A DNA stretch of 64,000 nt from Candidatus Firestoneibacteriota bacterium (GCA_903861835.1 CAIOVX010000091.1:47610-111609); one strand, 5' to 3'. Numbered from the stretch's first letter, positions 30,512-57,577 are shown. The notes: a model not told the origin generated them from the letters alone. A program made the numbers and translations.

Positions 30512-31465
30512 TTACTTCAATTTCTTCCACCACCATTTATTCTCCAGATACCACTGGACCGTCTTTTCCATCGCGGTCTCAAAATCATAGCGGGGAGTAA
30601 AACCAAGACCCTGCGACTTCTTTGAGGAAATTGAATACCTGAAGTCATGGCCGAGCCGGTCCTTAACGTGGGTTATCAACGCTTCCGGCCTGTCTATGAG
30701 TTTCAGTATGAGTTTAGTGATATAAATATTCTGCTTTTCGTTGCCGCCGCCGAGGTTATAGACCTCTCCCGGCTTGCCTTTGTGCAGCGCAAGGTCCACG
30801 CCCGCGCAATTATCTTCCACATAGATCCAGTCGCGGACATTCTTGCCCTCGCCGTAGACAGGGACCTTAAGCTTCTCAGACGCGTTCGTGATGAAGAGCG
30901 GGATGAGTTTCTCGGGATATTGAAAGGGCCCAAAGTTATTTGAACTTCTCGTAATTATTACCGGCATGCCGTAGGTTGTAAAATATGAGAGAGCGAGAAG
31001 ATCTCCCGCGGCCTTGCTGGAAGAATAGGGGCTGCTTGGAGAAAGTTTATCTGTTTCCTTGAAAGAACCGGTCTTTCTGCTCCCGTAAACCTCGTCAGTG
31101 CTTATCTGGAGGAATCTCTTTACTCCCGCCCTCCTCGCCGCTTCTAACAATGTGTAGACGCCGAAATAGTTAGTGCGTATGAAGGCTTCCGGATCGTCAA
31201 TCGACCGGTCAACATGCGATTCCGCCGCGAAATTCACCACCAGATCAACGCCCTTCATAATCCGGGAAGCGAGTTTAGCGTCACAAATATCGCCCTTCAC
31301 AAAAGAATAATTCTTGTTTCCGGCCAGTTCCTTCAGATTGTCGAGGTTGCCGGCATAGGTGATTTTGTCAAGGTTGATTACCCTGTATGAAGGATGCTTC
31401 TTGAGCACATACCTGACGTAGTTACTGCCTATGAAACCGGCGCCGCCGGTGACAAGGATTTTCAT
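30512..31465 (-). CDS. rfbB: dTDP-glucose 4,6-dehydratase
   Basis: MKILVTGGAGFIGSNYV and the YSSSKAA catalytic motif. Confidence 0.9.
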   Translation of the reverse strand: MKILVTGGAGFIGSNYVRYVLKKHPSYRVINLDKITYAGNLDNLKELAGNKNYSFVKGDICDAKLASRIMKGVDLVVNFAAESHVDRSIDDPEAFIRTNYFGVYTLLEAARRAGVKRFLQISTDEVYGSRKTGSFKETDKLSPSSPYSSSKAAGDLLALSYFTTYGMPVIITRSSNNFGPFQYPEKLIPLFITNASEKLKVPVYGEGKNVRDWIYVEDNCAGVDLALHKGKPGEVYNLGGGNEKQNIYITKLILKLIDRPEALITHVKDRLGHDFRYSISSKKSQGLGFTPRYDFETAMEKTVQWYLENKWWWKKLK

Positions 31466-31917
31466 CCGTCCTTCCTCGCCCAGTTGTATTTAATTTTTTT
31501 TGTGTGCGCGGGCAGACGGTATTCGTCCGGTTTCTTGTAATTGAAAAGTTCCGTAGGGCAATTGATTATCATGCTCTCGGTCTCGCTGACGCATTTGAAA
31601 CCGTGAAAGACATTATTTGGTATTTGCAAAAGGATGGGGTTGTGCTCTCCCATATAAAACTCATTTATCTCCCCCTTCGTGGAAGAGCCTTTTCTGGAGT
31701 CAAAGAGCACGACCTTTGCCATTCCTTTTATGCAGCAAAAGTTATCGGTCTGTATTTTGTGGTAGTGCCAGGCCTTAACCACCCCGGGATAGGTAGTTGT
31801 GATGTACATCTGCCCGAATTTCTTAAACTCCGGATCATCCGAGCGCATTATCTCCATAAGCCTTCCCCTTTCATCCGGGAAAACTTTCAGTCTTTTTACC
31901 TTCACCCCGTTTATCAT
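31462..31917 (-). CDS. rfbC: dTDP-4-dehydrorhamnose 3,5-epimerase
   Basis: Cupin-fold RmlC motifs (FPDERG, KAWHYHK). Confidence 0.9.
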   Translation of the reverse strand: MINGVKVKRLKVFPDERGRLMEIMRSDDPEFKKFGQMYITTTYPGVVKAWHYHKIQTDNFCCIKGMAKVVLFDSRKGSSTKGEINEFYMGEHNPILLQIPNNVFHGFKCVSETESMIINCPTELFNYKKPDEYRLPAHTKKIKYNWARKDG

Positions 31918-31936
31918 ATTGCCAACCTCCGCACCT

Positions 31937-31983
31937 TACGTTTTACGTTATAAACGTTATGAACGTTAAGAACGTTAAGAACG
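31937..31983 (-). promoter_or_regulatory. Intercistronic TAACGTT repeat array (about 5 units with 9-nt period) between the rfbA-like stop and the rfbC start
   Basis: Sense strand reads cgttcTTAACGTTcTTAACGTTcaTAACGTTtaTAACGTaaAACGTaagg, followed by a GGAGG RBS. Confidence 0.45.
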
Positions 31984-35649: not shown

Positions 35650-36542
35650 TTAGTGTTTCTCCTTTCTACCATTTTTTTTATTTGAGCTATATGAACGGGG
35701 GTAGTCCCGCAGCATCCGCCTATAATATTCGCGCCTGCATCTATAAGTTCCTCAACCCGGGAAGCCATTATCTCAGGCGATCCGTCGTAAGTGACCACTC
35801 CGTCTTTCATGACCGGAAGCCCGGCGTTCGGTTCGGCAATAATTAACCTGTTCGTGTGTTTCTTTATCGCCCTAACAATTTCTATCATTGAATCAATACC
35901 GTAGCCGCAGTTTGCGCCGATAATATCGGCACCCGCGGCTTCCAGTTGTTTAGCCATAGTTTCTGTATCAACGCCCATAACGGTCCGAACATCGCCGTTA
36001 TTGATCTTAAAGGTCATAAGAGCCATAACCGGCAGCTTAGTTACACTCTTCGCCGCTTTCACGGCGAGCGCAGTCTCTTCTATCGCTATCATCGTCTCGA
36101 CGATAATAAAATCTGCGCCGGCTCCCGCGAGAATCTTTGCTTGCTCCGAAAAAGCCGCGAACGCCTTTTCAGCGGTCATAGTGCCGTACGGCTCTAGCAT
36201 CTCGCCGGTGGGGCCGATATCTCCGCCCACATAGACCGGACTGTTTCCCGCAGCCGTCTTCGCGTTTTTTACCCCGGCTTCGTTTATCTCCCTAAGCTTG
36301 CCGTCGAGGTTAAACTTCTCAAGTTTCAAGCGGTTCGCGCCGAACGTATTGCTGAGCACCATATCAGCGCCCGCTTCAATATATTTCTTATGTATGCCGG
36401 TGACGCTCTCCGGTTTTGTCAGATTCCAAAGCTCCGGGCATTCCCCTGCCGCTAAGCCTTCCGCCTGCAGCATGGTTCCCATAGCGCCGTCGCACAACAG
36501 TACCCTGCTCTTTATGGAATCCAGCAGGTCTTTGTTCTTCAT
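35646..36542 (-). CDS. Homocysteine S-methyltransferase-domain protein (MetH N-terminal Hcy-binding-domain type)
   Basis: LLCDGAMGTMLQ, and a C-terminal GGCCGTTP Zn-binding motif. 298 aa, standalone. Confidence 0.65.
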   Translation of the reverse strand: MKNKDLLDSIKSRVLLCDGAMGTMLQAEGLAAGECPELWNLTKPESVTGIHKKYIEAGADMVLSNTFGANRLKLEKFNLDGKLREINEAGVKNAKTAAGNSPVYVGGDIGPTGEMLEPYGTMTAEKAFAAFSEQAKILAGAGADFIIVETMIAIEETALAVKAAKSVTKLPVMALMTFKINNGDVRTVMGVDTETMAKQLEAAGADIIGANCGYGIDSMIEIVRAIKKHTNRLIIAEPNAGLPVMKDGVVTYDGSPEIMASRVEELIDAGANIIGGCCGTTPVHIAQIKKMVERRNTK

Positions 36543-37927
36543 TTTTTCTTCCTGAGTTCCTTAAGCAGTTCCGGAAGACACTGTTCAACCTGCTGCCACA
36601 TCTCCTGCTCGGAGATGCCGGTAGTCCGTCCGTTGACATACTGCTCGTCAACCCACGTCTTAATGAAAGTTACCGCGTGATGGTGCTTGTCAACTTTGCC
36701 GTCGCCAACAAGTTCCAGACGGCTGTTAAGCCAGTAGGCTATTCCCGCCACACCCGATTTATCTGTGATACCGACATCAACATGGCGCTTAAGTATTTTG
36801 TTCGTGTCAAAAATATTATAGATTTCTTCGTCTTTCATCATGCCGTCGGCGTGGATTCCTGCCTTAGTCACGTTGAAATTAGCCCCTACAAAAGGCTGGT
36901 TCTCGGGAATTTTGTATCCGATGTCCTTTTCAAAATATCTGGCGACATCCGTGATGACAGTCGTGTCCATACCGTTGTCAACTCCCCTTATACCGATATA
37001 CTCAAGCATCAACGCTTCCACCGGACTGTTGCCTGTGCGCTCGCCGATACCCATCAGAGACCCGTTCGCGGCGCAGCAGCCGTAGAACCAGGCCGTCGCG
37101 GCGTTTATCACGCCCTTGTAGAAATCATTGTGCCCGTGCCACTCAAGCCACTCGCTCGGAACACCGGCGTGCTTGTGCAGTCCGTAGCAGATGCCCTTCA
37201 CGCTTCTCGGCATTGAAGCGCCGGGATAAGTTACCCCGTAGCCGAGAGTGTCGCAAGCCCTTATCTTTACGGGAATCTTTGCCTCGCGGGCAAGTTTCAT
37301 CAGTTCCTGAGCAAAAGGAACAACAAAGCCGTAGAAATCGGCCCTTGTTATATCTTCAAAATGGCAGCGCGGAGAAATCCCGAATTCCAGCGCAGACTTC
37401 GCGATGGCAAGATAATCTTCCAGCGCCTGCTTGCGCGTTTTTTTCAATTTTAGGAAGATATGGTAATCCGAGACCGAGGTAAGAATACCCGTCTCTTTCA
37501 GCCCCATCTCTTTCACAAGTTTGAAGTCTTCCTTGACAGCGCGTATCCAGCCGGTAATTTCAGGATAGCGCAAACCGAGTTCACGGCACTTGTCAACAGC
37601 CTCGCGGTCCTTCTTCGTGTAAAGGAAGAACTCCGTCTGGCGTATCATTCCGTTCTTGCCTGAAAGCTGGCTTAACATCTTGTACAGGTCAACTATCTGC
37701 TTAACGCTGAAAGGCGGCAAGCTCTGCTGACCGTCCCGAAAGGTTGTATCTGTGATCCAGATATCTTCGGGCGGTTCCATTGGGACTATTCTGTGGTTAA
37801 AAGGAACCTTCGGCACGTCGCCATAGGAAAAGATATTTCTGTAGAGGTTTGGGGTCTCCACATCCTGCAGGTCGTACTTATAGTCGTCCTGCTCTAACGT
37901 CCGTTTTTCCTTATTATATCTAAGCAT
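36539..37927 (-). CDS. HMGL-like 2-isopropylmalate / homocitrate / Re-citrate synthase family protein (no LeuA regulatory domain)
   Basis: DRE-TIM barrel motifs ITDTTFRDGQQS, HGHNDF and GIGERTGNSPVEAL. The whole ORF is 462 aa with no C-terminal LeuA-dimer domain. Confidence 0.55.
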   Translation of the reverse strand: MLRYNKEKRTLEQDDYKYDLQDVETPNLYRNIFSYGDVPKVPFNHRIVPMEPPEDIWITDTTFRDGQQSLPPFSVKQIVDLYKMLSQLSGKNGMIRQTEFFLYTKKDREAVDKCRELGLRYPEITGWIRAVKEDFKLVKEMGLKETGILTSVSDYHIFLKLKKTRKQALEDYLAIAKSALEFGISPRCHFEDITRADFYGFVVPFAQELMKLAREAKIPVKIRACDTLGYGVTYPGASMPRSVKGICYGLHKHAGVPSEWLEWHGHNDFYKGVINAATAWFYGCCAANGSLMGIGERTGNSPVEALMLEYIGIRGVDNGMDTTVITDVARYFEKDIGYKIPENQPFVGANFNVTKAGIHADGMMKDEEIYNIFDTNKILKRHVDVGITDKSGVAGIAYWLNSRLELVGDGKVDKHHHAVTFIKTWVDEQYVNGRTTGISEQEMWQQVEQCLPELLKELRKKK

Positions 37928-38220
37928 ACGGCTCCTTGCGCTAGAATGGGTTTACCCTATAAAAGGGTTACCGATTTGCTATATTATCAAATTTAGGAGG
38001 GGTTTTAAAGCACTTTTTGAGTTGGAAAAGCGCATATACCAAATTCGCAACAATCTGCACCAAAGACAAGTTCTAAATGCTAAATTCTAAACAGAAGCAA
38101 CACGATTCCGCGGTTATTGCTATTTGCCTTATTGCTTTTTGTTTAAAATTTAGTGCTTAGAGCCGCTCCGCGGATTGCTAATTACTAATTAAAGACTCAA
38201 AGGTCTGAAGCGCATCGGTC

Positions 38221-38440
38221 ATCTGTCCTCCGTCTTCAGTCTTCTGTCTTCCGTCTTCTGTCTTCAGTCCTCCAGTCATTTAAGCCCTTAAGCATCTAAC
38301 CATCTAACCATCTAACCATCTAACCATCCAACCATCCAACCATCCAACCTTCCAAACATCCAACCTTCCAACCCTCTGACCTTCCGTCCTCAGTCCTCAG
38401 TCCTCTGTCTTCTGTCCTCCGCTATACTGCGCATCATTAC
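38221..38440. repeat. Composite tandem-repeat element, copy 1: a 7-mer array (tcYgtcY), then cccttaagcatc, then an 8-mer array (ccatcYaa / ccNtccaa), then a second 7-mer array
   Basis: Direct tandem 7-nt and 8-nt units are visible in the sequence. It is one of 3 copies in 6.4 kb and lies in the 5' region of the HMGL-like gene. Confidence 0.8.
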
Positions 38441-38492
38441 TGCCTTACTGAGCATCCGAGCCTCTGACCCGCTGAGCCTCACCTCTCCGCCG

Positions 38493-39590
38493 TTATCTTT
38501 TTCCTTTCGGGGTGAATACCGGCTCAGCAGTTCTGAAAATACACCCCGTGTCGGCTTTAATGTCAATCACCGTGCAATACATCCTGCCGTCGACGGGATT
38601 ATAGGCAAGCCAGCTGGCCCTGTATTGAGGGGGAATGCCGTCTGTAAAAGCGCTCCAGGTACTCCCGCCGTCAGTCGACCTGGCAAAAACAGGCGTCTTT
38701 AGCCAGTCAACGCCGTTACCCGCATACAAGTACCCGTTCGGATCCTTTCTTAAAGCGCCCAGACCTTTCGAAGAACAACCTGAATCGTAAACCAGCTGCC
38801 ATGTCGCGCCGCGGTCGTTGGTCCTGTAAACACCCTGTATCATCTGATAGAACACATCTCCCTTGTCGTTGAACGCGATGTGCATCGCATCTGCTATCTG
38901 CGACCTTAATCCGGTCTTGGTCGGCACATGCTTCCAGGATCGCCCATTGTCAGTTGAAATAAAAACACTATTGCCGTCCACTTCAGACCCCATCCAGCAA
39001 TCGCCGGTAACCGGATTATATCCAAAACAGAACTCTGCCTGCCCGTGACCGATGCCTTCTCCGGCAAGCGAGCAGGAAACTCCGTGATCCGAGGAATAAT
39101 ACGGCCCCTCTCCCCAGCAAACGCCGAACAAAATATCTCCGTTGGGGAGAAAACCGGCGCCGTCAATGGCAGTGCGCGGATGCCCCCCCTTGAAGCCTTC
39201 GATCTTATTCCAGTTCCTGCCGCCGTCAACGGAACGGTAATAATAGGATACATTCTTTTTGGGAACGGTGCAGTCTATCTGGGACGCAATCAGGTATCCC
39301 GTATTCGGGTCGGCCTGGATGGTTGAAGCATGCCATTTATTGCCGGGATTTACGGCAAGGCCTGAGCCGTTAATGGAGGTCCAGGTCTTTCCGAAATCTT
39401 TGGAAACAAAAAAACCTGCTTCGGAGGAACAGGTGTAGAGATTACCCGAGACGTCGCATTCAATGCATCTTGTTTTCTTAACGCCGCCGGGAGCAGTCAC
39501 AGGCTCCCAGATGGCCGCTTTCACGAATAAAGCCGTGAATACAAACAGCATTACAAGTATCGCTCTAGGAATCACCATAAGATTTTTCAT
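38493..39590 (-). CDS. Secreted BNR/Asp-box repeat protein (sialidase-like beta-propeller)
   Basis: Signal peptide and at least 5 Asp-box repeats of the SxDxGxTW form (SKDFGKTW, SVDGGRNW, STDNGRSW, TNDRGATW, STDGGSTW). Confidence 0.7.
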   Translation of the reverse strand: MKNLMVIPRAILVMLFVFTALFVKAAIWEPVTAPGGVKKTRCIECDVSGNLYTCSSEAGFFVSKDFGKTWTSINGSGLAVNPGNKWHASTIQADPNTGYLIASQIDCTVPKKNVSYYYRSVDGGRNWNKIEGFKGGHPRTAIDGAGFLPNGDILFGVCWGEGPYYSSDHGVSCSLAGEGIGHGQAEFCFGYNPVTGDCWMGSEVDGNSVFISTDNGRSWKHVPTKTGLRSQIADAMHIAFNDKGDVFYQMIQGVYRTNDRGATWQLVYDSGCSSKGLGALRKDPNGYLYAGNGVDWLKTPVFARSTDGGSTWSAFTDGIPPQYRASWLAYNPVDGRMYCTVIDIKADTGCIFRTAEPVFTPKGKR

Positions 39591-39600
39591 TCAGCTCCGG

Positions 39601-39785
39601 GATATAGTTAAGACCTTAAGCTTCTGCCCTTCTGTCTTCCGTCTTCAGTCTTCTTCCTCCATCCACGCAGGCCCTTAACCATCTAACCATCCAACCATCC
39701 AACCCTCCAACCCTCCAACCCTCTAACCTTCCAACCATCCAACCCTCCAACCCTCCAACCCTCCAACCCTCTAACCTTCCAACCC
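39601..39785. repeat. Composite tandem-repeat element, copy 2: a 7-mer array, the core catccacgcaggcccttaaccatc, and an 8-mer array (ccaaccct / ccaaccat, about 14 units)
   Basis: It fills the whole spacer between the heparinase-like stop at 39786 and the BNR gene start at 39590. Confidence 0.8.
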
Positions 39786-41789
39786 TCATTTCTCAAACCT
39801 TCCCGCCACCACCTCATTCTTCATGTCACTCTTAACGCCGTTCACGAGGATATACCCGCCGGTATCTCCTTCAAAGAGCACCTCGTTGCCGTCAATACTC
39901 ACGCCTATGCCCTTGCCTTTCTGTATAAGCACCGGTTTTTTCTCTCCTGCGGTCGACAGCACATTCAGGAATACATCCTCGGCCTTTCCGACGCCGGGCT
40001 TTATCTCCACCCTCCACAAGTCTGCCTCGGGAGTCAGCTTGCTTTCCTTTTCCGGATAATTCTTGCCGCCGTAAGTGTACCCTTCCACCTTGTTTATAAC
40101 CGACTTTTCAGGCAGCAGCGCGTAGCAGTTCAGCGTTCCTTCTCCGTTCTTTACCGCGAATTCAGCGTTCTTTATTTCCGGCTCATTCTTGCAATGCAGC
40201 AGCCAGGTTTTCGCGTAATCCTTGTTCAGCGCCTCAACCCTGTCATAGATCACGAAGATTCCGGGGCGCAAAAACACTATCCGGCGTATATACTTGCTTA
40301 CTTTCCTGGAACTGTAGGCCTTTGTGCAGTCTCCCGTGAGATACATAAAGCCCGGGGTGTTTTCATAAGCGGTTATCTTGCCGCGGGAGAAAGTTTCCTT
40401 TTTGGCTTCCCATTCAGGCAGCGTCCCGACCACAGTCTCCCATTTCTTGGCCTGGCCGCCGTCATTCTCAAGTTCCTTCACGCCGCGGTAATTCTTCCAT
40501 TCCTCTCCCGGCATTAATACGAGCATGCAGTTGTGAGCGACAGTGCGCGTCAGCCAGTTTACCGCGTGAGGAGAACTCCAGGCGATATATTCCCCGCTCT
40601 CGGTCGCCAGCTGTTCTTTGCAGAAAATCTCAAAGTTCCCGGCCTCAAAATGCTGGTGCTGGTTCCAGTAGTCGGAACATTCAAACCTGAACCAGGTTGC
40701 GTCATCACCCCAACCGTCCCTTGCGTAGACCTTCCCGATGTCCTTCGTAATGTGAGCCAGAGGGAAGTCAGACAGGCCTTTGGGGGCGTCAGCAGGCCCT
40801 CCGTACAGAAAATCAAAAGCCCTCGACATCAGGTTAGAACCCGCGCGGTTCTTGCCCGCCGTGTATTTTGAAAGTTCCGAGCCCCCGAAGTATCTCGCGA
40901 TAACATTTCTCATATGGCGCGGGTATTCCCTGGCGCCGCTGTAGATATTTGCCCCGTCGCCTTCCATAGGGTAATTCTCGGCGCCGTAATCGGCGAATCC
41001 CGGATACGGCTGGAGCAGTTCGAAGGCAAGACGCTGATAAAAGAATTTTTGGCATTTCTTGAACCCGTCATAACCCTCTGCCATCCGCGCGAGTTCAAGC
41101 GCCTGTGTCAGGTGCCAGACAGAATGCCTCTGGTACCAGCCGCACTCCGTCCAGCCCCCTCCCGCCCCGTATTTATTGAGGACGGGAATGAGCTTGCTCT
41201 CGTAAAGCTCTAAAATGGCTTTGTCCCTGAAAGTTTTTGCTTTCGGGTTGTCATTCCAGGTCGCGTAGGCAATCCTAAGATAGGTAAGCATTTTTGACAT
41301 CGTAGAATTGTGAAACGCATTCTCGTCGTCGCGGTAGGAATCGTAGGTGGCATTCATCCAGTCAATTATTTTTTTGCGGTTTGAGTCTCCCAGCTCGTTA
41401 TAAAAAAAGTCAAAGACAAAAGCCGCGTTCGTAAGTTCTATCCAGGTATCCTGATGTTTATTGGAAGGACCTTTGTTTACAAGGTTCATCGTTTCGGCAA
41501 TAGTTTTATCTATTTTAGACTTGTCCAACCCCTCTACTGCCTGAGTGATACAGCGGAATTCAAGCGCGCTCGCGTTCCGGATCTCGCCGTAAACCCGCGG
41601 GTTCTCTTTAGCGAGAGCTTTAAGACGCTCTTTTGAGCCATAAAGGATTGGGTGCTTCCCGAGATCCTTAGACCACGCACCTGTCTCCACAACCGGATTT
41701 CCGGCCGGAATTTCCTGGGCAAAGAGCGGTCCGCTGAGAATACAGGCAAACGCGAGAAATTTTAGGACACTCTTAGATTTAAAGAGCAT
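39786..41789 (-). CDS. Heparinase II/III-like polysaccharide lyase family protein
   Basis: Signal peptide. It has an alpha/alpha-toroid N-terminal domain (WYQRHSVWHL...) and a beta-sandwich C-terminus containing the NQHQHFEAGNFEIF motif. 667 aa. Confidence 0.6.
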   Translation of the reverse strand: MLFKSKSVLKFLAFACILSGPLFAQEIPAGNPVVETGAWSKDLGKHPILYGSKERLKALAKENPRVYGEIRNASALEFRCITQAVEGLDKSKIDKTIAETMNLVNKGPSNKHQDTWIELTNAAFVFDFFYNELGDSNRKKIIDWMNATYDSYRDDENAFHNSTMSKMLTYLRIAYATWNDNPKAKTFRDKAILELYESKLIPVLNKYGAGGGWTECGWYQRHSVWHLTQALELARMAEGYDGFKKCQKFFYQRLAFELLQPYPGFADYGAENYPMEGDGANIYSGAREYPRHMRNVIARYFGGSELSKYTAGKNRAGSNLMSRAFDFLYGGPADAPKGLSDFPLAHITKDIGKVYARDGWGDDATWFRFECSDYWNQHQHFEAGNFEIFCKEQLATESGEYIAWSSPHAVNWLTRTVAHNCMLVLMPGEEWKNYRGVKELENDGGQAKKWETVVGTLPEWEAKKETFSRGKITAYENTPGFMYLTGDCTKAYSSRKVSKYIRRIVFLRPGIFVIYDRVEALNKDYAKTWLLHCKNEPEIKNAEFAVKNGEGTLNCYALLPEKSVINKVEGYTYGGKNYPEKESKLTPEADLWRVEIKPGVGKAEDVFLNVLSTAGEKKPVLIQKGKGIGVSIDGNEVLFEGDTGGYILVNGVKSDMKNEVVAGRFEK

Positions 41790-41987
41790 TGAGCCTCCTG
41801 TTTACTATTTACTGTCAAATCTGAACGGCACCGCAGACAGGCCTTCCGAACGGCAAAAAGGTTCCTCCGGTAATCCGCTGGTCACTGCGCCCGCAGTTGT
41901 ACTTTAGGCCTTGTTGCTTGATACAACAATGATACTGGAATGGTCAGCGTCTGCAGCAAAAATAATTTCGGTGTGCAAGCGAAGTCC

Positions 41988-43733
41988 CTACTTTTCCGCT
42001 GCCTCGAGTTCTATTATCTTATTGGCGACTTCCATCTTAAACACTTCCAGTTTCTCAAACGAGATAACCTCCTGCTTTAAAGCCGCGAGCGTGGTCCTGG
42101 TATCGGGTATAAGCGCGCCAAAGGACTCGAGCAGTTTTTTTGCAGCTCCTGCTTTTCCGGCGAGTTCAGGATTGGACTTCGCTTTTTCTATGAGTTGTTC
42201 AAGCGTCACAACATACCGCCGGTCATCAATCCCCTTTCTCATTGCTTCATAATTCACGGACGGCATAATGTCCTCGGTGTCATTTTCGCAAGGCCCGGTC
42301 AGGCACCAGTCAGGATCTCCTCCGTCAAGGTCATTCAAGGGGTCTCCGCTGTATGAATTGAAAGACCACATTTTCAAAGAAGAATAATTATTTTTCCAGG
42401 GAAAGAGCCCCGGCTCAAGCCTTGCGTGCAGAATACTTCCGCTGTCTATCCAGACATTGAGGCTGAGTCTTTTTCCATTGCCCAAGAGAAAAGCCTTGTC
42501 CAATTCCGGCCACAACGCGTAACTCCAGTTCACATCGGTATGTTGCGCGTAAAGCTTGTAAACATCCGGCCCGTTAAGAGTTTCCACGACTGTAACTCCC
42601 TCAATGGTCTTTAGCCACTTGATGAGCGGAGTCAGCTCCCGGCGCCGTTCTTCGCTGTTGCCGGGTTCATCGATTCCAAAATAAAATATTTCCACTTTTT
42701 CGCCGTACTTATCCTTAACCTGCTTGTTAAAGCGCTCTATCATCTTGCGCCCTTCGGAAACAAAGACAGGAGAATGCAATTTTGTTTTCAGCGCCGCGGC
42801 TATCGCATGCGAGAGCGGCTGCGCGTAGATCAAAAAGCTGCCATTCAGCCCTTTACTTAAAGCCAACTCGGCATCTTCTTCAAACCCCTTAAAATCTATT
42901 CCCTCCGCGGACACCTGCAGGTTCCTTAAACCTATATCGTAGCCGTAGACCCCGTGCTCTTTAAGGCTTTTTACGAAATTATCGTTCCTGATATTCGGAT
43001 CATCAAAAAACCACATATTGAATTTCTTCGGGGAAACGAGTTTTATCGGAAGGACTTCTATTTCTACCGGCACGCTTGCCGCCGCGCTGTTCGCCGGAGC
43101 AAACTCTATCGTGCCCTTGTAAAGGCCGGGCTTGGCGTCTTCAGGAATCTTTACGGTTATCCACCACTGGCGCGTCGGGCCGGCCTTTACCGCGCCCCAG
43201 AGTATTTTCTCCCCGGCAGGAATATCCATAGTATCCTTCTTCTCCATAAGCCAGGGGTTCAAACGGAAGATATGCGGACCGGTCCTTTTCGGCATATGCC
43301 AGACAGTCCGAGCTTCAAAGTTCTCAGGACCTATATTGTCCTTCCCGGAAGAAAGGCCGGAAGAGGAAACCTTTGCCGCTTTAAGATCTTTCAAAGGATA
43401 AACCGAGAATGTGAGGGGGATATACTCTCCCGGGCTGCCGAAAGACGCGCATTTCAGCCCGCTCTTTTCGGTAGGCACAGAGTTATGAAATATTTGTGCG
43501 GAATAATCATTGGAGAACAGGATGTAACCCCTTTCCTTCTCCCCGGCGGTTGCCGCTCTTATAGTGTCGTTCGCCTCGCGCACATCTTCTACAAATTTAC
43601 CGGTCTTGAGTATTATCTTTGTGGTTGTGTCCCGATCTTTTCTCTTCTTGTCTATCACTTCCTGTGACACGGCAGCGGAATAAGAAAGGCAGGCGAATGA
43701 CAGCAGAAGCGCGCAGATCAATACTCTTTTCAT
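41988..43733 (-). CDS. Secreted glycoside-hydrolase-like protein, paralog B (possibly GH123/DUF4091-like; contains the adjacent Asp-Glu motif IDEP)
   Basis: Signal peptide. It shares the blocks GLYKGTIEF...VEIEVLPIKL, FGIDEPGNS and GIDDRRYVVTL with the ORFs at 18550 and 46254. Confidence 0.4.
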   Translation of the reverse strand: MKRVLICALLLSFACLSYSAAVSQEVIDKKRKDRDTTTKIILKTGKFVEDVREANDTIRAATAGEKERGYILFSNDYSAQIFHNSVPTEKSGLKCASFGSPGEYIPLTFSVYPLKDLKAAKVSSSGLSSGKDNIGPENFEARTVWHMPKRTGPHIFRLNPWLMEKKDTMDIPAGEKILWGAVKAGPTRQWWITVKIPEDAKPGLYKGTIEFAPANSAAASVPVEIEVLPIKLVSPKKFNMWFFDDPNIRNDNFVKSLKEHGVYGYDIGLRNLQVSAEGIDFKGFEEDAELALSKGLNGSFLIYAQPLSHAIAAALKTKLHSPVFVSEGRKMIERFNKQVKDKYGEKVEIFYFGIDEPGNSEERRRELTPLIKWLKTIEGVTVVETLNGPDVYKLYAQHTDVNWSYALWPELDKAFLLGNGKRLSLNVWIDSGSILHARLEPGLFPWKNNYSSLKMWSFNSYSGDPLNDLDGGDPDWCLTGPCENDTEDIMPSVNYEAMRKGIDDRRYVVTLEQLIEKAKSNPELAGKAGAAKKLLESFGALIPDTRTTLAALKQEVISFEKLEVFKMEVANKIIELEAAEK

Positions 43734-44317
43734 TTCAGCTCCTTTTTGAAAAGAGACACTTTCAGTTTATCGGCATCTACAAGAACAGTTTCCTCGGAGA
43801 ATAGTTTGGCTTCAATTATGCGGGAAGCTCTTATCCAGCACGCTTCCTGAAATGAATCCCCGGACATTACCATCTTACCTTCATATTCCTCGTCTTCCGC
43901 GTATTTCTTAAGCTCCCCGACCCAGAGCGGATTAGGGGCGCCGCCGTCAAGGCTGGCGTAGATTCCGAAGATGGTATTGCCGTCGGATGATATGCCTGCC
44001 GAAATATAATACATAATTTTGTCCTGCGGCCCGAGGCTGTATTGTTTTAGCTCCTTATCCGCCGTATTCAACAGAAAAAGCCGCCCTCTTTTTATGAACA
44101 AAATCTTTGAAAATGCGGCGTCAGCGGTTACGCTCTTGATAAAATCTTCTTCCGCGCCGTCATATAGGGCCGTGGTCTTCCCTGTTGCATTATCCTTCAG
44201 TTCTATTTTGGACCCGCTCGCAATAAGCGTCTTACTGCCGCCGGAGTTCTCCTTCGCCGCTGCAGGCAGCGCCAAAACAGCAGAAAACGCGACAAACAGG
44301 AAAAAACATTTTATCAT
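43730..44317 (-). CDS. Secreted hypothetical protein, co-operonic with paralog B
   Basis: Signal peptide from MIKCFFLFVAF. The start is the ATG at 44317, which has a GGGAG RBS. There is a 4-nt overlap with the downstream gene. No recognisable domain. Confidence 0.4.
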   Translation of the reverse strand: MIKCFFLFVAFSAVLALPAAAKENSGGSKTLIASGSKIELKDNATGKTTALYDGAEEDFIKSVTADAAFSKILFIKRGRLFLLNTADKELKQYSLGPQDKIMYYISAGISSDGNTIFGIYASLDGGAPNPLWVGELKKYAEDEEYEGKMVMSGDSFQEACWIRASRIIEAKLFSEETVLVDADKLKVSLFKKELK

Positions 44318-44395
44318 CCTTATTCTCCCGGCGGGACTGCCCCGCTTAATGAATTTCTTTACGCACAAAAGTATCTTTCTTTAATACTTCCGGAA

Positions 44396-44620
44396 ACACA
44401 CCTTCTGTCCTCCACCTTACTGCGCATCCGCGCATCACTTCTGACTTCTGACTTCAGTCTTCCGTCCTTTGTCTTCCGTATTCAGGCCTCTTCATCCATC
44501 CACGCAGGCTCTTAATCATCCAAACATCCAACCTTCCAACCAGCCGCCATTCTGTCTTCTTGCCTCATCCCTTGCCGGCCCTTAAACATCCAACCCTCCA
44601 ACCCTCTGAACCTCCAAATC
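44396..44620. repeat. Composite tandem-repeat element, copy 3: cttactgcgcatc, a 7-mer array, the core catccatccacgcaggctcttaatcatc, and an 8-mer array
   Basis: It shares the core and both arrays with copies 1 and 2. It lies in the 5' region of the operon at 43730-44317 and 41988. Confidence 0.75.
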
Positions 44621-44996
44621 ATTGTTTCAGCAAATCCCCCATTTCCTTTTGCATTTGCGCGTTGAATTCACCGGCGATACCCACCATAAACTTGATGGAG
44701 ATTATGAGCAGAACAATTCCTATCCAAAACGAGATCCAGACCCAGAGTTTCGCTTTCTTTGAACTGACTTTAGCCTTTTCATGCAAACCAGCATTGAAGA
44801 ATGCATTTACCTTCAGGCCATATATAAAGGAAACAATCCCGGTTGGAATCAGAGAAAGTATCATGAGTACGGAGAGCCAGATGTAGGTTTTGGGTTTTAC
44901 AGGTTTTACGGTAAGATTCAGGAGGTCGCTTCCGCAGTACCGGCACTTGATGGCTTCATCCTGGATCTCTTCAGCGCAATACGGGCACTTCTTCAT
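44619..44996 (-). CDS. Zinc-ribbon membrane protein, hypothetical
   Basis: N-terminal CPYCx12CRYC zinc ribbon, then two TM helices. Confidence 0.4.
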
Positions 44997-49671: not shown

Positions 49672-50550
49672 ATGGCAAGAAATCAGGATTTGGATTTAGG
49701 CCTTATTAACAGGCCGCAATATTCTCTCTCCGCAGAGAACCCTGTGCGGCTCAGCCTGACCGGCCACAAAGAGAAGATAACAGCGCGTTTCGATATGCAT
49801 TTTGAGATAGAGCTCGGCATCCTGGTCTCCGGAAGAATGAAAAGATTTTACCAGAACCACGAAATGGACTTGAAGCCCGGAGATGTTTGGGCCTGCGGGA
49901 TGTGGGAGCCGCACGGATTCAGCGTTAAGAAACTGCCCTGCAAGGTGATAGTGTTTACAGTCTACCCGCAACTGATCCTCGGCGCTAATTTCGAGGAACT
50001 CCCTGACTTCAAGCCAATTTCTTTCTTCACTGCGCCTCCTAAAAGAAGGCTCAGGCTGAACAAGGAAGAGCGGATTAAAGCACTGGGGCTGGGTAAACGC
50101 CTCGAGAATGCCTATAATTGCAAAGGCATGGAAAGGACCGCCCTTCTTCGTGTATGCCTGTATGATCTTCTGCTCATCATGTACGCGGCCAGGTCCAAAA
50201 GAAAGCAGAACATTGAGACCGCAGATCCCGGCTCAATAACTCTAATAAACGGCGCCATACAACTGGTATTGGATTCAAAGAAGCTTGTTGCCGAAGAGAA
50301 AGCCGCGAGAAGATGCGGATTAAGCAAAAACAGCTTTAATGCACTCTTCAAAAGAACCACAGGCTTGAGTTTTTATAAGTTTGCGCTGAAGTACAGGCTG
50401 AGCAATGTCGCCGGCCGCCTGCTCAGGACCAACGACCCGTTGAAAGCCATCGCGGCGGACTGGGGCTTCTTTGACGCGAGCCATTTACACCGGCTCTTCG
50501 TGCAGAACTACGGCTGTTCCCCGGGAGAGTACAAGAAAATACATTCCTGA
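49672..50550 (+). CDS. AraC-family transcriptional regulator (cupin sensor domain plus HTH)
   Basis: C-terminal AraC HTH signature (SHLHRLFVQNYGCSPGEY). It is divergent from the GH4 gene. Confidence 0.8.
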   Translation: MARNQDLDLGLINRPQYSLSAENPVRLSLTGHKEKITARFDMHFEIELGILVSGRMKRFYQNHEMDLKPGDVWACGMWEPHGFSVKKLPCKVIVFTVYPQLILGANFEELPDFKPISFFTAPPKRRLRLNKEERIKALGLGKRLENAYNCKGMERTALLRVCLYDLLLIMYAARSKRKQNIETADPGSITLINGAIQLVLDSKKLVAEEKAARRCGLSKNSFNALFKRTTGLSFYKFALKYRLSNVAGRLLRTNDPLKAIAADWGFFDASHLHRLFVQNYGCSPGEYKKIHS

Positions 50551-50903
50551 TAGGCGGCTCTAACAGGTCTCCTTGCTGAAATCATGGAGGTTGTTCCGCT
50601 GACGTCTTCAGGAATACTGATTATTTCCCTTACCTTAATTTCTTCTTTTTTTTCAGTGGCTTCTCGGGCGCGTTCTTGTGAATATCAAAAAGCGGCTGCA
50701 TGCTCGCAAAGCTGATGAAATCCTGCGCAGGTTTCGGCTCAACCTTTGTTTTACTAACCTTCTTCTTCATAGCGCACCGCTCCTATGAGAGTTCCCGATT
50801 CTTACAGGTATTATATAACTATATTTCAAATATGCAAAGAAGCCTTCTTTCGGAGCTTCAAACACCATATAACAGGTTACTGTTCAGCGCCACAACCCCG
50901 GAG

Positions 50904-51803
50904 CTAGAATGTAGCTGATATCCCTGCCGTCGGAGCAACGCCAAGCTTCAAACCGACAATGCCGGTGTCTTTCTCGGCGAGAAAGATATAGAGCTCCCCG
51001 CCGATGTTAAGATTGACATTCGAAGTAACGGCTAATTTCAGACCCGCGCCGAGGTCAATCGCGGCTGTGACCGTCTTTCCCTCCAACCCGGCATAGATAT
51101 ACGAGGGCAGAGTGGATACAATGCTCGTCTTGAAATCCTGGTAGAACGCGCCTACGCCGCCCGATACATAGAACATATCCGTGAGGTGATGGTAATAGTC
51201 CAGTTTTACGAGCACAACTGTGGAACTGACAGACTCAGCTGCCGTGTTCAAACCGCTTGTGTAGGAGTTTATCTGCTTGTTAGTCGTAAACGAGCCGATA
51301 GTGACCTTTATGCCCGGGTGAAATTGCGTGAATTCGCCGAAGGAGATATCCGCCTGCCAGCCGTAGCCGTCAAAAACTATGTTGCTATTCCAGGGGGCAA
51401 ACGCTCCGGAGGTAAAGAGCGCCGTGCCGTAAACGGAACTGAAAGAATAGTAGCCGTAGGAGAATCCCGCGCCGATTTTCTTGAAGGCGTCCAGGTTCAG
51501 GGGTTGTTCATTGCCGGGAAGAGCGGGAGCGTCACCTGCGGATGAAGACTGGTAATCATCCGTATCAATTTCTTCAAACTTAATCTCGTTCCCGTACTCA
51601 TCAAAGTATTTTTTGACCTTGCGGGTGATCTCTTTCTTTACTTCTACAGGAGGCTTGCCCTGTTCTTGTATCACCATCGTCCGGAATACTCCCGTCCCCT
51701 CTTCCACCCAGACCGCTTTGATATGCCTGTGGTGCGCGTCAAGCTGGGAAGCGGCAAAAAGCACCAACAACGCGGCCGAAACGGACAGAATGTTTAGTTT
51801 CAT
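50904..51803 (-). CDS. Outer-membrane beta-barrel protein, hypothetical
   Basis: Signal peptide, alternating amphipathic beta-strands, and a C-terminal aromatic residue (...ISATF). Confidence 0.45.
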   Translation of the reverse strand: MKLNILSVSAALLVLFAASQLDAHHRHIKAVWVEEGTGVFRTMVIQEQGKPPVEVKKEITRKVKKYFDEYGNEIKFEEIDTDDYQSSSAGDAPALPGNEQPLNLDAFKKIGAGFSYGYYSFSSVYGTALFTSGAFAPWNSNIVFDGYGWQADISFGEFTQFHPGIKVTIGSFTTNKQINSYTSGLNTAAESVSSTVVLVKLDYYHHLTDMFYVSGGVGAFYQDFKTSIVSTLPSYIYAGLEGKTVTAAIDLGAGLKLAVTSNVNLNIGGELYIFLAEKDTGIVGLKLGVAPTAGISATF

Positions 51804-52420: not shown

Positions 52421-52527
52421 TATGACTCCTTTTGAAATGTGTTAATTCATTCTATCAAACCCGAGGGGTTTTTCAAGTGGAAATACCCTGTTATCTTCGT
52501 TATAATGGGACTTCCTCAGGAGGAAAA

Positions 52528-53616
52528 ATGGCATATAACATAACATTGATAAAAGGCGACGGAATAGGGCCGGAACTCGCGCAGGCGGCAAAGATGTGCG
52601 TGGAAGCGACCGGCGTAAAGGTAGTCTGGGATGAGGTTGAAGCAGGAATAGATGTGATGGCAAAAGAGGGCACTCCCCTCCCGGAAAGAACCATAGAATC
52701 CGTCCGTAAAAACAAGCTGGCGCTCAAGGCGCCTGTTACCACGCCGGTCGGCACGGGATTTCGAAGCGTGAATGTGGCGCTCAGGCAGGTGCTCGGCCTT
52801 TACGCTTGCGTGCGCCCCTGTAAATCCTACGAGGGCGTTCGTTCCAAGTACAGGAATATTGACCTCGTTATAGTGCGCGAGAATACCGAGGACCTTTACG
52901 CCGGAATTGAATTCAAACAGGGCGAAGAAAAGACGAAGAAACTGATTGACGAGATTTCGGCTCTCGGCGGCAAGAAGATACTGCCGGATTCCGGCATCAG
53001 CATCAAACCTATTTCAATCCAGGGCACCGAAAAAATAGTTACTTACGCTTTTGAATACGCGCGCAAGCATAAAAGGAAGAAGGTCAGCGCCGTTCACAAA
53101 GCTAATATCATGAAGTTTACCGACGGGCTCTTTCTGGAAGTTGCCCGCAATGTTGCGAAGAAATACACTGATATAGAGTTTAATGATGTCATCGTCGACA
53201 ATATGTGCATGCAGCTGGTGCAAAAACCGGAACTCTATGATGTTCTTGTCCTTCCCAACCTCTACGGCGATATTATTTCAGATCTTTGCGCGGGGCTTGT
53301 AGGCGGTCTTGGCGTGGCGCCGGGAGCGAATATCGGAGCTGATTCGGCTGTCTTTGAAGCAACCCACGGCAGCGCTCCAAAATACAAGGGCTTAAACAAG
53401 GTAAATCCTACCGCGCTCATACTCTCTTCCGTGCTTATGCTTGAACATATGGGAGAACTTGAAGCGGCGCGCAAGCTGGAAGCCGCGGTCGCAGCCGTAA
53501 TAAAAGAAGGCAAGCGCGTGACCTATGATATGAAACCGGACAGGAACGATCCGACGGCGGTTGGGACCAGGGAGATGGCTGAGGAAATAGCGATAAAGGC
53601 AAATTCTAAATTCTAA
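52528..53616 (+). CDS. icd: Isocitrate dehydrogenase (NAD-dependent type, isocitrate/isopropylmalate dehydrogenase family)
   Basis: [30 protein letters not shown], and the NLYGDIISD metal-binding motif. The start is refined to the ATG at 52528, which has a GGAGGAAAA RBS. Confidence 0.75.
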
Positions 53617-53639
53617 ATTCGAAACCCAAAGGAGTTGTT

Positions 53640-55533: not shown

Positions 55534-55556
55534 CGTTCTTAACGTTTGTAACGTAA
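55529..55556 (+). promoter_or_regulatory. Intercistronic TAACGTT repeat array (3 units with 9-nt period) between fumA and fumB; the first unit contains the fumA stop codon
   Basis: cgTAACGTTctTAACGTTtgTAACGTaaacc, 18 nt upstream of the fumB ATG. Same unit and same orientation as the array at 31937-31983. Confidence 0.45.
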
Positions 55557-57527: not shown

Positions 57528-57577
57528 AAGTTTTTAAGGTTCATAAGGTTTATAAAGTTTATAAGGTAAGCGCAAAC

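What the first reader, a model, noticed from the sequence alone, without database searches (positions are those of the whole stretch)
38221..44620. A three-copy composite tandem-repeat element in the 5' regions of glycan-degradation genes
Three intergenic spacers carry the same modular element: 38221-38440, 39601-39785 and 44396-44620. Each starts with a 7-nt tandem array (tctgtcttccgtcttcagtc...). Copies 2 and 3 then have a conserved core (catccacgcaggcYcttaaYcatc), and copy 1 has cccttaagcatc at that position. Each ends with a long 8-nt tandem array (ccatctaa / ccatccaa / ccctccaa), reaching about 14 units in copy 2. All copies have the same orientation and all lie upstream of minus-strand genes: the BNR sialidase-like gene, the hypothetical-plus-paralog-B operon, and the HMGL-like synthase. 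On the sense strand the 8-mers read (GGTTGGAG / GGTTGGAT)n, which is a GGTTGG-type G-tract pattern that could form a G-quadruplex. Octanucleotide arrays in promoter spacers are classic substrates for slipped-strand phase variation. The element is not CRISPR: the units are only 7-8 bp and there are no spacers. Three copies in 6.4 kb, confined to the accessory glycan island, suggests a lineage-specific regulatory or contingency element.
Basis: seen in the sequence. Interest (0 to 1): 0.78.

Follow-up and report, generated by a model that had tools for sequence, protein, structure and literature searches.

The report
Compound 7/8-base microsatellites between genes
Three spacers between glycan-degrading genes are filled with slippage-prone arrays of 7- and 8-base units that gain or lose whole units between populations, an example of a known but poorly understood kind of bacterial microsatellite rather than a demonstrated genetic switch.

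Summary
Three intergenic gaps (38218-38492, 39629-39787, 44402-44617) carry the same modules, all in one orientation: 7-nt arrays, a short unique core and 8-nt arrays. The copies are homologous (72 nt at 88%, 27 nt at 89%). No further copy was found in about 79 kb of this genome.

Unit number varies. Nearly identical assemblies show three haplotypes: 14/10, 13/10 and 13/9 units in copies 2 and 1. Copy 3 did not vary. In a sister lineage, copy 1's arrays are absent, copy 2's distal array is replaced by (GCGCAGAT)n, and copy 3 is kept.

The arrays are not promoter spacers. They start at or next to the stop codon of the upstream co-directional gene and fill the spacer up to a conserved leader.

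(CCAACCNT)n arrays occur in at least 120 loci across many phyla. Permuted octamers are also common, and other 7-9-nt arrays sit after stop codons elsewhere in the window.

My verdict is a new member of the known class of long-unit intergenic simple sequence repeats (STRR, TAACTGA and GGGNATC types). A regulatory "rheostat" role is possible but unshown, and G-quadruplex potential is only compositional.

The parts
38150..38220 (-). Unique flank module of copy 1 (contains CTAATTAAAGACTCA and GCTCCGCGGAT). It is part of the ~264-nt segment that the sister lineage lacks.
   Evidence: An exact 15-mer is shared with a Candidatus Firestonebacteria MAG contig (L113), again next to 7-mer and 8-mer arrays in the same order. 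The segment is absent from L169.
38218..38273 (-). Copy 1, first 7-nt array (GTCTTCN on +, GAAGACN on the sense strand), about 8 units.
   Evidence: TRF (period 7 and 21); motif scan.
38274..38296 (-). Copy 1 degenerate core (…CCCTTAAGCATC).
   Evidence: family D2/D4.
38293..38373 (-). Copy 1, 8-nt array of 10.1 units (CCATCTAA / CCATCCAA / CCTTCCAA). It has one unit fewer in assembly L002.
   Evidence: TRF; alignment A2; gap lengths.
38376..38419 (-). Copy 1, second 7-nt array (GTCCTCA type), about 5 units.
   Evidence: TRF (D3, D6).
38420..38492 (-). Copy 1, CTGCGCATC module plus a decayed period-8 tract (sense …TCAGCGGG TCAGAGGC TCGGATGC TCAGTAAG…). It runs to the BNR stop codon at 38493-38495.
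   Evidence: D5, D9; this part is conserved in L169.
39591..39628 (-). Leader between copy 2 and the BNR start codon (SD GGAG, palindrome TTAAGGTCTTAA). It is identical in the sister lineage.
   Evidence: Alignment A4.
39629..39653 (-). Copy 2, 7-nt array of 3.6 units. The sister lineage has one unit fewer.
   Evidence: TRF.
39656..39683 (-). Copy 2 unique core (CCTCCATCCACGCAGGCCCTTAACCATC).
   Evidence: D4, 88% to copy 3; one substitution in L169.
39677..39787 (-). Copy 2, 8-nt array of 13.9 units (sense GGGTTGGA / TGGTTGGA / AGGTTAGA). It starts on the TGA stop of the heparinase-like gene. There are 13 units in L002 and PRHKacUV. In the sister lineage only about 3-4 units remain, alongside (GCGCAGAT)n.
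   Evidence: TRF; A1.
44402..44436 (-). Copy 3, 7-mer remnant plus CTGCGCATC module (89% to 38409-38435).
   Evidence: D9.
44437..44483 (-). Copy 3, 7-nt array (CTTCTGA / CTTCAGT / CTTCCGT).
   Evidence: TRF (D3). Unit changes in the sister lineage are shown.
44493..44520 (-). Copy 3 unique core (CATCCATCCACGCAGGCTCTTAATCATC).
   Evidence: D4. It is identical in sister lineage L168.
44517..44542 (-). Copy 3, first 8-nt array of 3.2 units.
   Evidence: TRF.
44550..44588 (-). Copy 3, second 7-mer remnant and degenerate core (…GGCCCTTAAACATC).
   Evidence: D2, D6.
44589..44617 (-). Copy 3, second 8-nt array of 3.6 units. It ends 1 nt from the TGA stop of the CD225/zinc-ribbon gene (44619-44621). 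The sister lineage has one unit fewer.
   Evidence: TRF. Length is invariant in about 10 assemblies.

Best explanation
The element is a compound microsatellite. It consists of nested arrays of 7-nt and 8-nt units and fills the untranslated spacers between co-directional genes of a glycan-degradation island.

Shown:
- The three copies are homologous modules.
- The arrays gain and lose whole units, independently at different arrays.
- The arrays begin at or next to the stop codon of the upstream gene and end before a short conserved leader of the downstream gene.
- They turn over quickly between sister lineages: one is present or absent, and one has its unit type replaced.
- The same kind of array is widespread in bacteria.

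Inferred:
- The arrays arise and change by replication slippage.
- The three copies spread locally, by duplication or gene conversion inside the island, rather than by transposition.
- The arrays persist because this is the only unconstrained stretch of a compact intergenic region.
- No terminator was found in the spacers, so they are probably transcribed as part of the spacer RNA, with the purine- and G-rich strand as the sense strand.
- Any effect on the downstream gene is probably small and graded, acting through spacer length or SD-like GGAGG content. It is not an on/off switch.

The element belongs to the known class of long-unit (5-11 nt) intergenic simple sequence repeats of free-living bacteria.
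For: - Arrays and modules.
- Whole-unit indels are the only differences in 565-nt and 195-nt spacers that are otherwise 100% identical.
- In the nearly identical tract 36400-41200, L002 differs by 3 SNPs and these two 8-nt indels.
- Three haplotypes, 14/10, 13/10 and 13/9 units, are seen.
- The short arrays of copy 3 are invariant, as expected if slippage scales with tract length.
- Sister lineage: copy 1's arrays are absent (264 nt against 44 nt). Copy 2's distal array is replaced by (GCGCAGAT)n while the leader is kept. Copy 3 is kept minus one unit.
- There is no inverted partner, and no promoter or terminator consensus lies within the spacers themselves; the few consensus hits fall inside adjacent genes at about the rate seen in shuffles. 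No Rfam family matches.
- There are no further copies in 64 kb plus about 15 kb of flank. The core is found only at orthologous sites in metagenomes.
- (CCAACCNT)n occurs in at least 120 loci of many phyla. Permuted octamers are comparably frequent in viral contigs: 19, against 14 and 4.
- Other 7-mer arrays of many different units sit beside such arrays in other phyla.
- Arrays abut stop codons far more often than displaced control positions do: 22 plus 10 of 91, against 3-5.
- The window holds further 7- and 9-nt arrays at stop codons outside the island.
- Published descriptions of the class report the same features: whole-unit indels, mosaics of different units, contig breaks in arrays, and location between aligned ORFs near stop codons (PMC4679880, PMC4692102).
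Against: - The copy 3 spacer is more conserved between sister lineages than its flanking coding DNA: 93-100% against 79-93% per 100 nt. The core is also kept between paralogous copies. Together these hint at constraint on part of the element. The two lineages do show mosaic recombination, which could produce the same pattern.
- All copies, and the related L113 array, have the G-rich strand as the sense strand. This may reflect function, or only shared descent and strand skew.
- Copy 2 carries 6 GGAGG in 195 nt, against 1.3 per kb in the background, and genes here use GGAG(G) ribosome-binding sites. An influence on translation therefore cannot be excluded.
- No expression data or read-level data were available.
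Confidence: 0.6

Rival explanations
1. Contingency or rheostat element. The arrays lie in the promoter or 5' leader of secreted glycan-degrading enzymes. Changes in unit number tune or switch expression, as the (ATCTTTC)n tract does in the hmw1A 5' UTR of Haemophilus influenzae.
For: - Unit number varies between nearly clonal populations, and independently at two arrays.
- The downstream genes encode exported glycan-active proteins. The N-terminal signal-peptide-like sequence was read directly.
- The core and leader are conserved in the sister lineage.
- The 8-nt unit shifts the frame of small ORFs that start at ATGA overlaps with the upstream stop codons: 57 aa with 14 units against 32 aa with 13 units. 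This could alter translational coupling.
- A published precedent exists for a 7-nt array acting as a graded regulator in a 5' UTR (PMC12721329).
Against: - Only plus or minus one unit was seen, and copy 3 is invariant.
- No promoter consensus lies in the spacers.
- The arrays adjoin the upstream stop codon, not the downstream start.
- The sister lineage lacks copy 1's arrays and swaps the unit type in copy 2.
- The small ORFs are not conserved.
- There is no complementary arm that could form an hmw-like hairpin.
Confidence: 0.2
2. G-quadruplex element. The G-rich sense strand, (GGTTGGAG)n, which resembles the thrombin-aptamer motif GGTTGG, folds into quadruplexes in RNA or in the non-template DNA strand. 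These affect transcription, mRNA 3'-end stability or translation.
For: - The sense strands hold 6, 7 and 4 non-overlapping four-tract G2+ motifs, and copy 2 has one G3N1-7 x4 motif.
- Across phyla, arrays abut stop codons twice as often with the G-rich strand as the sense strand: 22 against 10 of 91.
- Rehm et al. showed G-quadruplex formation in vitro for GGGNATC repeats that have the same placement (PMC4692102).
Against: - Folding energy that allows quadruplexes is no lower than for shuffles of the same composition: copy 2 gives -40.5 against a mean of -41.4 kcal/mol.
- Most tracts are only GG.
- The sister lineage has (GCGCAGAT)n at the same position.
- Orientation between co-directional genes in other phyla is unbiased, 12 against 10.
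- Rehm et al. found no regulatory role.
Confidence: 0.1
3. Antisense Rho-loading site. The C-rich, G-poor, unstructured strand is antisense to the genes and acts as a rut site, stopping antisense transcription into the operon. In the same way, the C-poor sense strand would protect the long untranslated spacer from Rho.
For: The antisense strand of copy 2 is 45% C and 7% G, with a folding energy of only -11.8 kcal/mol over 198 nt. YC dinucleotides recur every 7-8 nt (read directly from the sequence). Rut-site properties are taken from established knowledge.
Against: - There is no evidence of antisense promoters.
- The sister lineage's replacement array is not C-rich/G-poor in the same way.
- Orientation is unbiased in other phyla.
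- The idea is untestable with the tools used here.
Confidence: 0.05
4. Non-autonomous mobile element, MITE- or BOX-like, that carries internal variable arrays and inserted three times.
For: - Its organisation is modular, with a variable internal repeat.
- Copy 1 is a 264-nt presence/absence difference between sister lineages.
- A 15-nt flank module is shared with a Firestonebacteria MAG, next to similar arrays.
Against: - There are no terminal inverted repeats and no inverted partner, and no target-site duplication is evident.
- Only three local copies occur in about 79 kb.
- The metagenome scan of the core returned only orthologous sites.
- Module order differs among the copies.
Confidence: 0.05

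Closest known systems
Long-unit (5-11 nt) simple sequence repeats of non-pathogenic prokaryotes (LSSRs, Mrazek et al. 2007, as summarised in PMC4679880), including cyanobacterial STRR heptamers (the latter recalled from memory)
   Same: Tandem units of 7-8 nt, an intergenic location, several unit types side by side, and whole-unit length changes between strains. No link to classic virulence phase variation. A slippage origin has been proposed.
   Different: The units here are GAAGACN and GGTTGGAN in the sense strand. The three copies also share a unique core. The host is an uncultured lake bacterium, not one of the surveyed taxa.
GGGNATC / GGGGAYT quadruplex-forming repeats of Xanthomonas and Nostoc (Rehm et al. 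2015, PMC4692102)
   Same: [quoted passage not shown] They vary in unit number between close relatives and have no identified function.
   Different: Those are genome-wide, with hundreds of loci, and prefer four units. Here three local copies have 3-14 units, mostly with GG rather than GGG tracts, and no in vitro data exist.
TAACTGA heptamer repeats of Beggiatoaceae, cyanobacteria and Bacteroidetes (MacGregor 2015, PMC4679880)
   Same: Intergenic heptamer arrays, often mixed with other heptamers in larger assemblages. Indels occur in 7-nt steps between strains, contigs break inside the arrays, and the phyletic spread is puzzling.
   Different: In the BOGUAY genome most TAACTGA arrays sit a few nucleotides upstream of start codons. 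Here the arrays are anchored at the upstream stop codon and separated from the next start by a conserved leader.
hmw1A/hmw2A (ATCTTTC)n 5'-UTR repeat of Haemophilus influenzae (PMC12721329)
   Same: A 7-nt array upstream of a gene for an exported protein. Unit number changes by slippage, and the array is transcribed.
   Different: In hmw the repeat pairs with a G-rich arm to form an RNase III-processed hairpin, and expression falls as unit number rises. Here no complementary arm exists and no expression effect is known.

Membership tests
Long-unit intergenic SSRs (LSSR / STRR / TAACTGA / GGGNATC class) | Head-to-tail arrays of a 5-11-nt unit, longer than chance would give | tested here: met
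   TRF scores of 113 and 159 for 10.1 and 13.9 copies. The motifs are essentially confined to these gaps.
Long-unit intergenic SSRs (LSSR / STRR / TAACTGA / GGGNATC class) | Intergenic location, preferentially between co-directional ORFs and close to a stop codon | tested here: met
   All three lie between minus-strand genes. Array 2 overlaps the stop codon and array 3 ends 1 nt from it.
Long-unit intergenic SSRs (LSSR / STRR / TAACTGA / GGGNATC class) | Length differences in whole units between close relatives | tested here: met
   8-nt indels in L002 and PRHKacUV. 7- and 8-nt differences in the sister lineage.
Long-unit intergenic SSRs (LSSR / STRR / TAACTGA / GGGNATC class) | Several loci per genome, with mosaics of different units | tested here: met
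   7-mers and 8-mers occur in each copy. Further 7- and 9-nt arrays lie at 31945, 53601, 55526 and 57530.
SSR-mediated phase-variable (contingency) locus | The repeat tract lies inside the reading frame, or between promoter elements, of the controlled gene | tested here: not met
   The arrays are outside the annotated genes and are 26-111 nt long, too long for a -35/-10 spacer. No promoter consensus was found in the spacers.
SSR-mediated phase-variable (contingency) locus | High-frequency, reversible change of unit number within a population | tested here: inconclusive
   Only consensus assemblies were available. They show plus or minus one unit at two arrays and none at copy 3. Read-level data could not be examined.
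SSR-mediated phase-variable (contingency) locus | Unit number changes expression of the gene | not testable with these tools
   This needs reporter or transcript measurements.
G-quadruplex-forming repeat | Four or more G-tracts separated by loops of 1-7 nt | tested here: met
   6, 7 and 4 G2+ motifs in the three copies, and one G3 motif in copy 2.
G-quadruplex-forming repeat | Quadruplex stability beyond that given by base composition, or demonstrated folding | tested here: inconclusive
   Quadruplex-aware folding energy equals that of shuffles. Biophysical assays were not possible.
CRISPR array | Repeats of about 23-50 nt separated by unique spacers of similar length | tested here: not met
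   The units are 7-8 nt and contiguous.
MITE / REP / BOX-type dispersed intergenic element | Many dispersed copies with conserved ends (inverted termini or target duplications) | tested here: not met
   No inverted arms. Three local copies only in about 79 kb. The core occurs only at orthologous sites in metagenomes.

The most novel reading that the evidence does not exclude
The arrays could be a length-tunable intercistronic leader. SD-like GGAGG units, with in-phase start codons, begin exactly at the upstream stop codon, and small ORFs start at ATGA overlaps with it. These would hold or re-engage terminating ribosomes. Because each 8-nt slip shifts the frame, it would reset how far ribosomes travel toward the next gene. 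That would tune translational coupling, or Rho polarity, of secreted glycan-degrading enzymes in a free-living lake bacterium. More broadly, stop-codon-anchored G-rich octamer arrays would then be a widespread post-transcriptional device.
Probability: 0.1. Interest if true: 0.65.

Novelty: new member of a known kind. Interest (0 to 1): 0.3.

Why it matters
If the arrays are only slippage-prone filler, the finding is a clean, well-documented example of long-unit microsatellites in an uncultured freshwater bacterium. It comes with direct evidence of unit gain and loss and of rapid turnover between sister lineages. That makes it useful as a strain marker and as a warning for assembly and gene calling, since spurious small ORFs are called inside the arrays.

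The function of this repeat class has been open since it was first described. A locus with natural 13- and 14-unit alleles, a 4-unit sister allele and an absent allele offers ready-made material for testing whether such arrays affect expression of the neighbouring genes.

Tried and rejected
- **Known RNA families:** Rfam found nothing at gathering threshold over the whole window. At E<=1 over the spacers it found only chance-level miRNA and snoRNA hits. No tRNA or tmRNA was found.
- **Promoters and terminators:** no sigma-70-like or intrinsic-terminator consensus lies within the spacers themselves; the hits returned fall inside adjacent genes at about the rate seen in shuffles.
- **Inverted partner arrays:** hairpin-forming pairs, as seen in Gemmatimonadales loci, are absent here.
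- **A conserved pan-bacterial GGTTGGAN element:** rejected. Permuted octamers are about as common in viral contigs (19, against 14 and 4). Orientation relative to genes is unbiased between co-directional genes. Neighbouring 7-mers differ from locus to locus.
- **Small proteins encoded by the arrays (57, 36 and 33 aa):** not conserved in the sister lineage, frame-shifted by the 8-nt indel, and either singleton clusters or absent from the protein collection.
- **Purifying selection on copy 3:** suggested but confounded by mosaic recombination between the lineages.
- **Taxonomic placement:** tblastn against the fetched loci gave nothing decisive. The only hint is a 15-nt module shared with a Firestonebacteria MAG.
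- **Failed look-ups:** two flank look-ups failed because the start codons I chose did not match the recorded genes.
- **A more distant BNR homologue (63% identity):** it has no arrays around it.
- **CsrA-type GGA binding:** considered, since there are 15-20 GGA per copy, but not tested.

Full report
**Observation**

Tandem Repeats Finder confirms the arrays at the stated places.
- 7-nt arrays lie at 38218-38273, 38386-38419, 39629-39653 and 44437-44455.
- 8-nt arrays lie at 38293-38373 (10.1 copies), 39677-39787 (13.9 copies), 44517-44542 and 44589-44617.

A degenerate motif scan of all 64 kb places every heptamer-family hit, and 21 of the 27 plus-strand octamer-family hits, in these three gaps, and all of those in-gap hits are on the + strand. 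The cores CATCCACGCAGGC (39659, 44496) and CCTTAANCMTC (38285, 39672, 44579) occur nowhere else.

The copies are homologous rather than merely similar in style. 39633-39704 and 44470-44541 are 88% identical over 72 nt, including non-repetitive sequence. 38409-38435 and 44402-44428 are 89% identical over 27 nt.

**Gene context**

All neighbouring genes are on the minus strand:
- HMGL-like, 36539-37927
- BNR/sialidase-like, 38493-39590
- heparinase II/III-like, 39786-41789
- GH123-like, 41988-43733
- a hypothetical gene ending at 44317 or 44368
- a CD225/zinc-ribbon gene, 44619-44996

Each element therefore lies between two co-directional genes. Read on the sense strand, array 2 begins on the TGA of the heparinase-like gene (39786-39788). 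It fills the 195-nt spacer down to a roughly 100-nt stretch (core, short 7-mer array, leader) before the BNR start. Array 3 ends 1 nt from the TGA of the CD225 gene. Copy 1 is joined to the BNR stop codon by a decayed period-8 tract.

The simple scans place no sigma-70-type promoter or intrinsic terminator within the spacers, and the few hits they return lie inside adjacent genes at about the rate seen in shuffles. There is no inverted partner and no Rfam family. A canonical hairpin-plus-T terminator does occur elsewhere in the window, after 57568, so the organism uses such terminators. The arrays are thus probably transcribed as spacer RNA; this is an inference.

**Variation within the species**

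Exact-protein look-ups recovered the locus in several independent assemblies.
- The spacer holding copy 2 is 195 nt in the window, L001/L128, L129 and one further contig. It is 187 nt in L002 and PRHKacUV.
- The spacer holding copy 1 is 565 nt everywhere except L002, where it is 557 nt.
- The spacer holding copy 3 is 301 nt in about ten assemblies.

Alignments show that L002 is identical to the window across both spacers except for exactly one missing 8-nt unit in each array. In the nearly identical tract 36400-41200, L002 differs by three SNPs and these two indels.

There are therefore three haplotypes: 14/10, 13/10 and 13/9 units. The two arrays changed independently, and both deletions fall within the 8-nt arrays. 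This is direct evidence of slippage. The amplitude is small, and no within-sample data could be examined.

**Sister lineage**

Both are orthologous regions of a lineage about 85-90% identical.
- **Copy 3** is retained, with one 8-nt unit fewer and altered 7-mers.
- **Copy 2** keeps the leader, the 7-mers (one unit fewer), the core (one substitution) and about 3-4 GGTTGGAN units. The rest of the spacer, up to the same stop codon, is made of a different octamer, (GCGCAGAT)n.
- **Copy 1's arrays** are absent. 264 nt in the window correspond to 44 unrelated nt in L169, flanked by GATGCGC motifs.

So the presence of an array at a stop codon is more stable than its sequence. This argues against functions that depend on the GGTTGGAG sequence itself.

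The copy 3 spacer is more conserved than its flanking genes: 93-100% against 79-93% per 100 nt. That could mean constraint. However, the two lineages are mosaics of 100%-identical and roughly 80%-identical patches, so I do not rely on it.

**Distribution**

No further copy occurs in the window or in about 15 kb of extra flank.

The phyla include Cyanobacteria, Chloroflexota, Gemmatimonadota, Bacteroidota, Verrucomicrobiota, Planctomycetota, Poribacteria, Cloacimonadota and Firestonebacteria. The hits are often at contig ends.

This is not a conserved element, for three reasons.
- In viral contigs the pattern gave 19 hits, against 14 and 4 for two permuted octamers.
- Orientation between co-directional genes is unbiased, 12 against 10. 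Convergent gaps outnumber divergent ones, 11 against 4. These figures rest on crude ORF calls.
- The 7-mer arrays that accompany these octamers differ from locus to locus.

One regularity does hold. Among 91 usable arrays, a long ORF stops at the array edge in 22 cases with the G-rich strand as sense and in 10 with the C-rich strand as sense. At positions displaced by 150 nt the counts are 3-5.

The window itself has other arrays placed the same way. These are 9-mers (GTTYNTAAS)n at 31945, 55526 and 57530, and a 7-mer at 53601, all at or on the upstream stop codon and in sense orientation.

**Mechanistic candidates**

*G-quadruplex.* The sense strands contain many GG tracts and one G3N1-7 x4 motif. 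However, quadruplex-aware folding energies equal those of shuffled sequences.

*SD-like content.* Copy 2 has six GGAGG in 195 nt, against 1.3 per kb in the background, and local genes use GGAG(G) ribosome-binding sites.

*Small ORFs.* Small ORFs begin at ATGA overlaps with the upstream stop codons. One is 57 aa in copy 2 and becomes 32 aa with 13 units. Another is 36 aa in copy 3. They are not conserved.

*Rut-like antisense strand.* The antisense strands are C-rich, G-poor and unstructured, which is rut-like.

None of these properties survives in the sister lineage's (GCGCAGAT)n replacement.

**Comparison with known systems**

The features match the published class of long-unit intergenic simple sequence repeats.
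- Mrazek et al. 2007, as summarised in PMC4679880, found 5-11-nt repeats in scattered non-pathogens, with heptamers most common, and proposed polymerase slippage as the origin.
- MacGregor 2015 (PMC4679880) described mosaics of heptamers, 7-nt indels between strains and contigs ending in arrays.
- Rehm et al. [quoted passage not shown] These vary between close relatives, and no function was found.

The closest functional analogue is the hmw1A (ATCTTTC)n 5'-UTR rheostat (PMC12721329). Its defining hairpin has no counterpart here.

**Verdict**

This is a real, slippage-active compound microsatellite in three homologous local copies. It is a new member of a known but functionally unresolved class.

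The phase-variation and G-quadruplex readings are not excluded, but they lack support. The promoter-spacer premise is not met.

Interest is modest at 0.3. The natural allele series (14, 13, about 4 and 0 units) would make a good test case for the open question of what such arrays do.

Noticed in passing
window 31945-31983, 55526-55554, 57530-57567: A second repeat family, 9-nt units (GTTYNTAAC/G)n, always read in the sense direction of the upstream gene and starting at or on its stop codon. At 55526 the first unit supplies the TAA stop. At 57530 a canonical terminator hairpin follows. The sister lineage has a longer, diverged 9-mer array at the site orthologous to 31945 (L169 9576-9666).
   Followed up: partly
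window 53601-53624: An (AAATTCT)x3.4 array overlaps the stop codon of the + strand gene 52432-53616, just before the ribosome-binding site of the next gene.
   Followed up: no
window 38060-38200: A/T-rich 7-nt quasi-arrays (TCTAAAT, TTATTGC, TTACTAA) lie between copy 1 and the HMGL-like gene. They are conserved in the sister lineage even though copy 1's arrays are missing there.
   Followed up: partly
window 36400-41700 vs L169; 36200-42300 vs L002: Mosaic pattern of divergence. Patches of 99-100% identity (e.g. 38700-38899, 39000-39499, 40400-41199) alternate with patches of 78-86%, indicating frequent homologous recombination between related lake populations in this island.
   Followed up: partly
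L009, L018, L020, L026, L035, L068 (Gemmatimonadales MAGs): Octamer arrays occur as inverted pairs, (GGTTGGAC)n … (GTCCAACC)n, around a short loop. These are long imperfect hairpins, unlike the one-sided arrays of the window.
   Followed up: no
L121 380-590 (Deltaproteobacteria bacterium ADurb.Bin026): A mosaic of the same two unit families as in the window, (CTTCTGA/T)n alternating with (CCAACCYT)n, in a distant phylum. It is the only one of 120 loci with this 7-mer.
   Followed up: partly
L113 60-215 (Candidatus Firestonebacteria MAG): This contig shares an exact 15-mer (CTAATTAAAGACTCA) and GCTCCGCGGAT with the flank of copy 1. These are followed by 7-mer and then 8-mer arrays that end on the stop codon of a 563-aa minus-strand gene. 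This hints at the taxon of the window and at a family of such spacers in that group.
   Followed up: partly
window 39616-39789 and 44512-44622 (minus strand): Gene callers in public assemblies call small ORFs (57, 36 and 32 aa) inside the arrays. Two of them start at ATGA overlaps with the upstream stop codon. Their length depends on unit number, and they are probably spurious.
   Followed up: yes
window ~50000-51000: Cumulative GC skew reaches its minimum here, and gene orientation switches to the + strand for 52.4-57.5 kb. The skew follows gene orientation, so the effects of replication and transcription on array strand cannot be separated.
   Followed up: no
window 31918-31945 (minus strand): The ribosome-binding site of gene 31462-31917 reads GGAGGTTGG, close to the octamer unit GGAGGGTTGG. 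This is a possible kind of seed sequence for such arrays.
   Followed up: no
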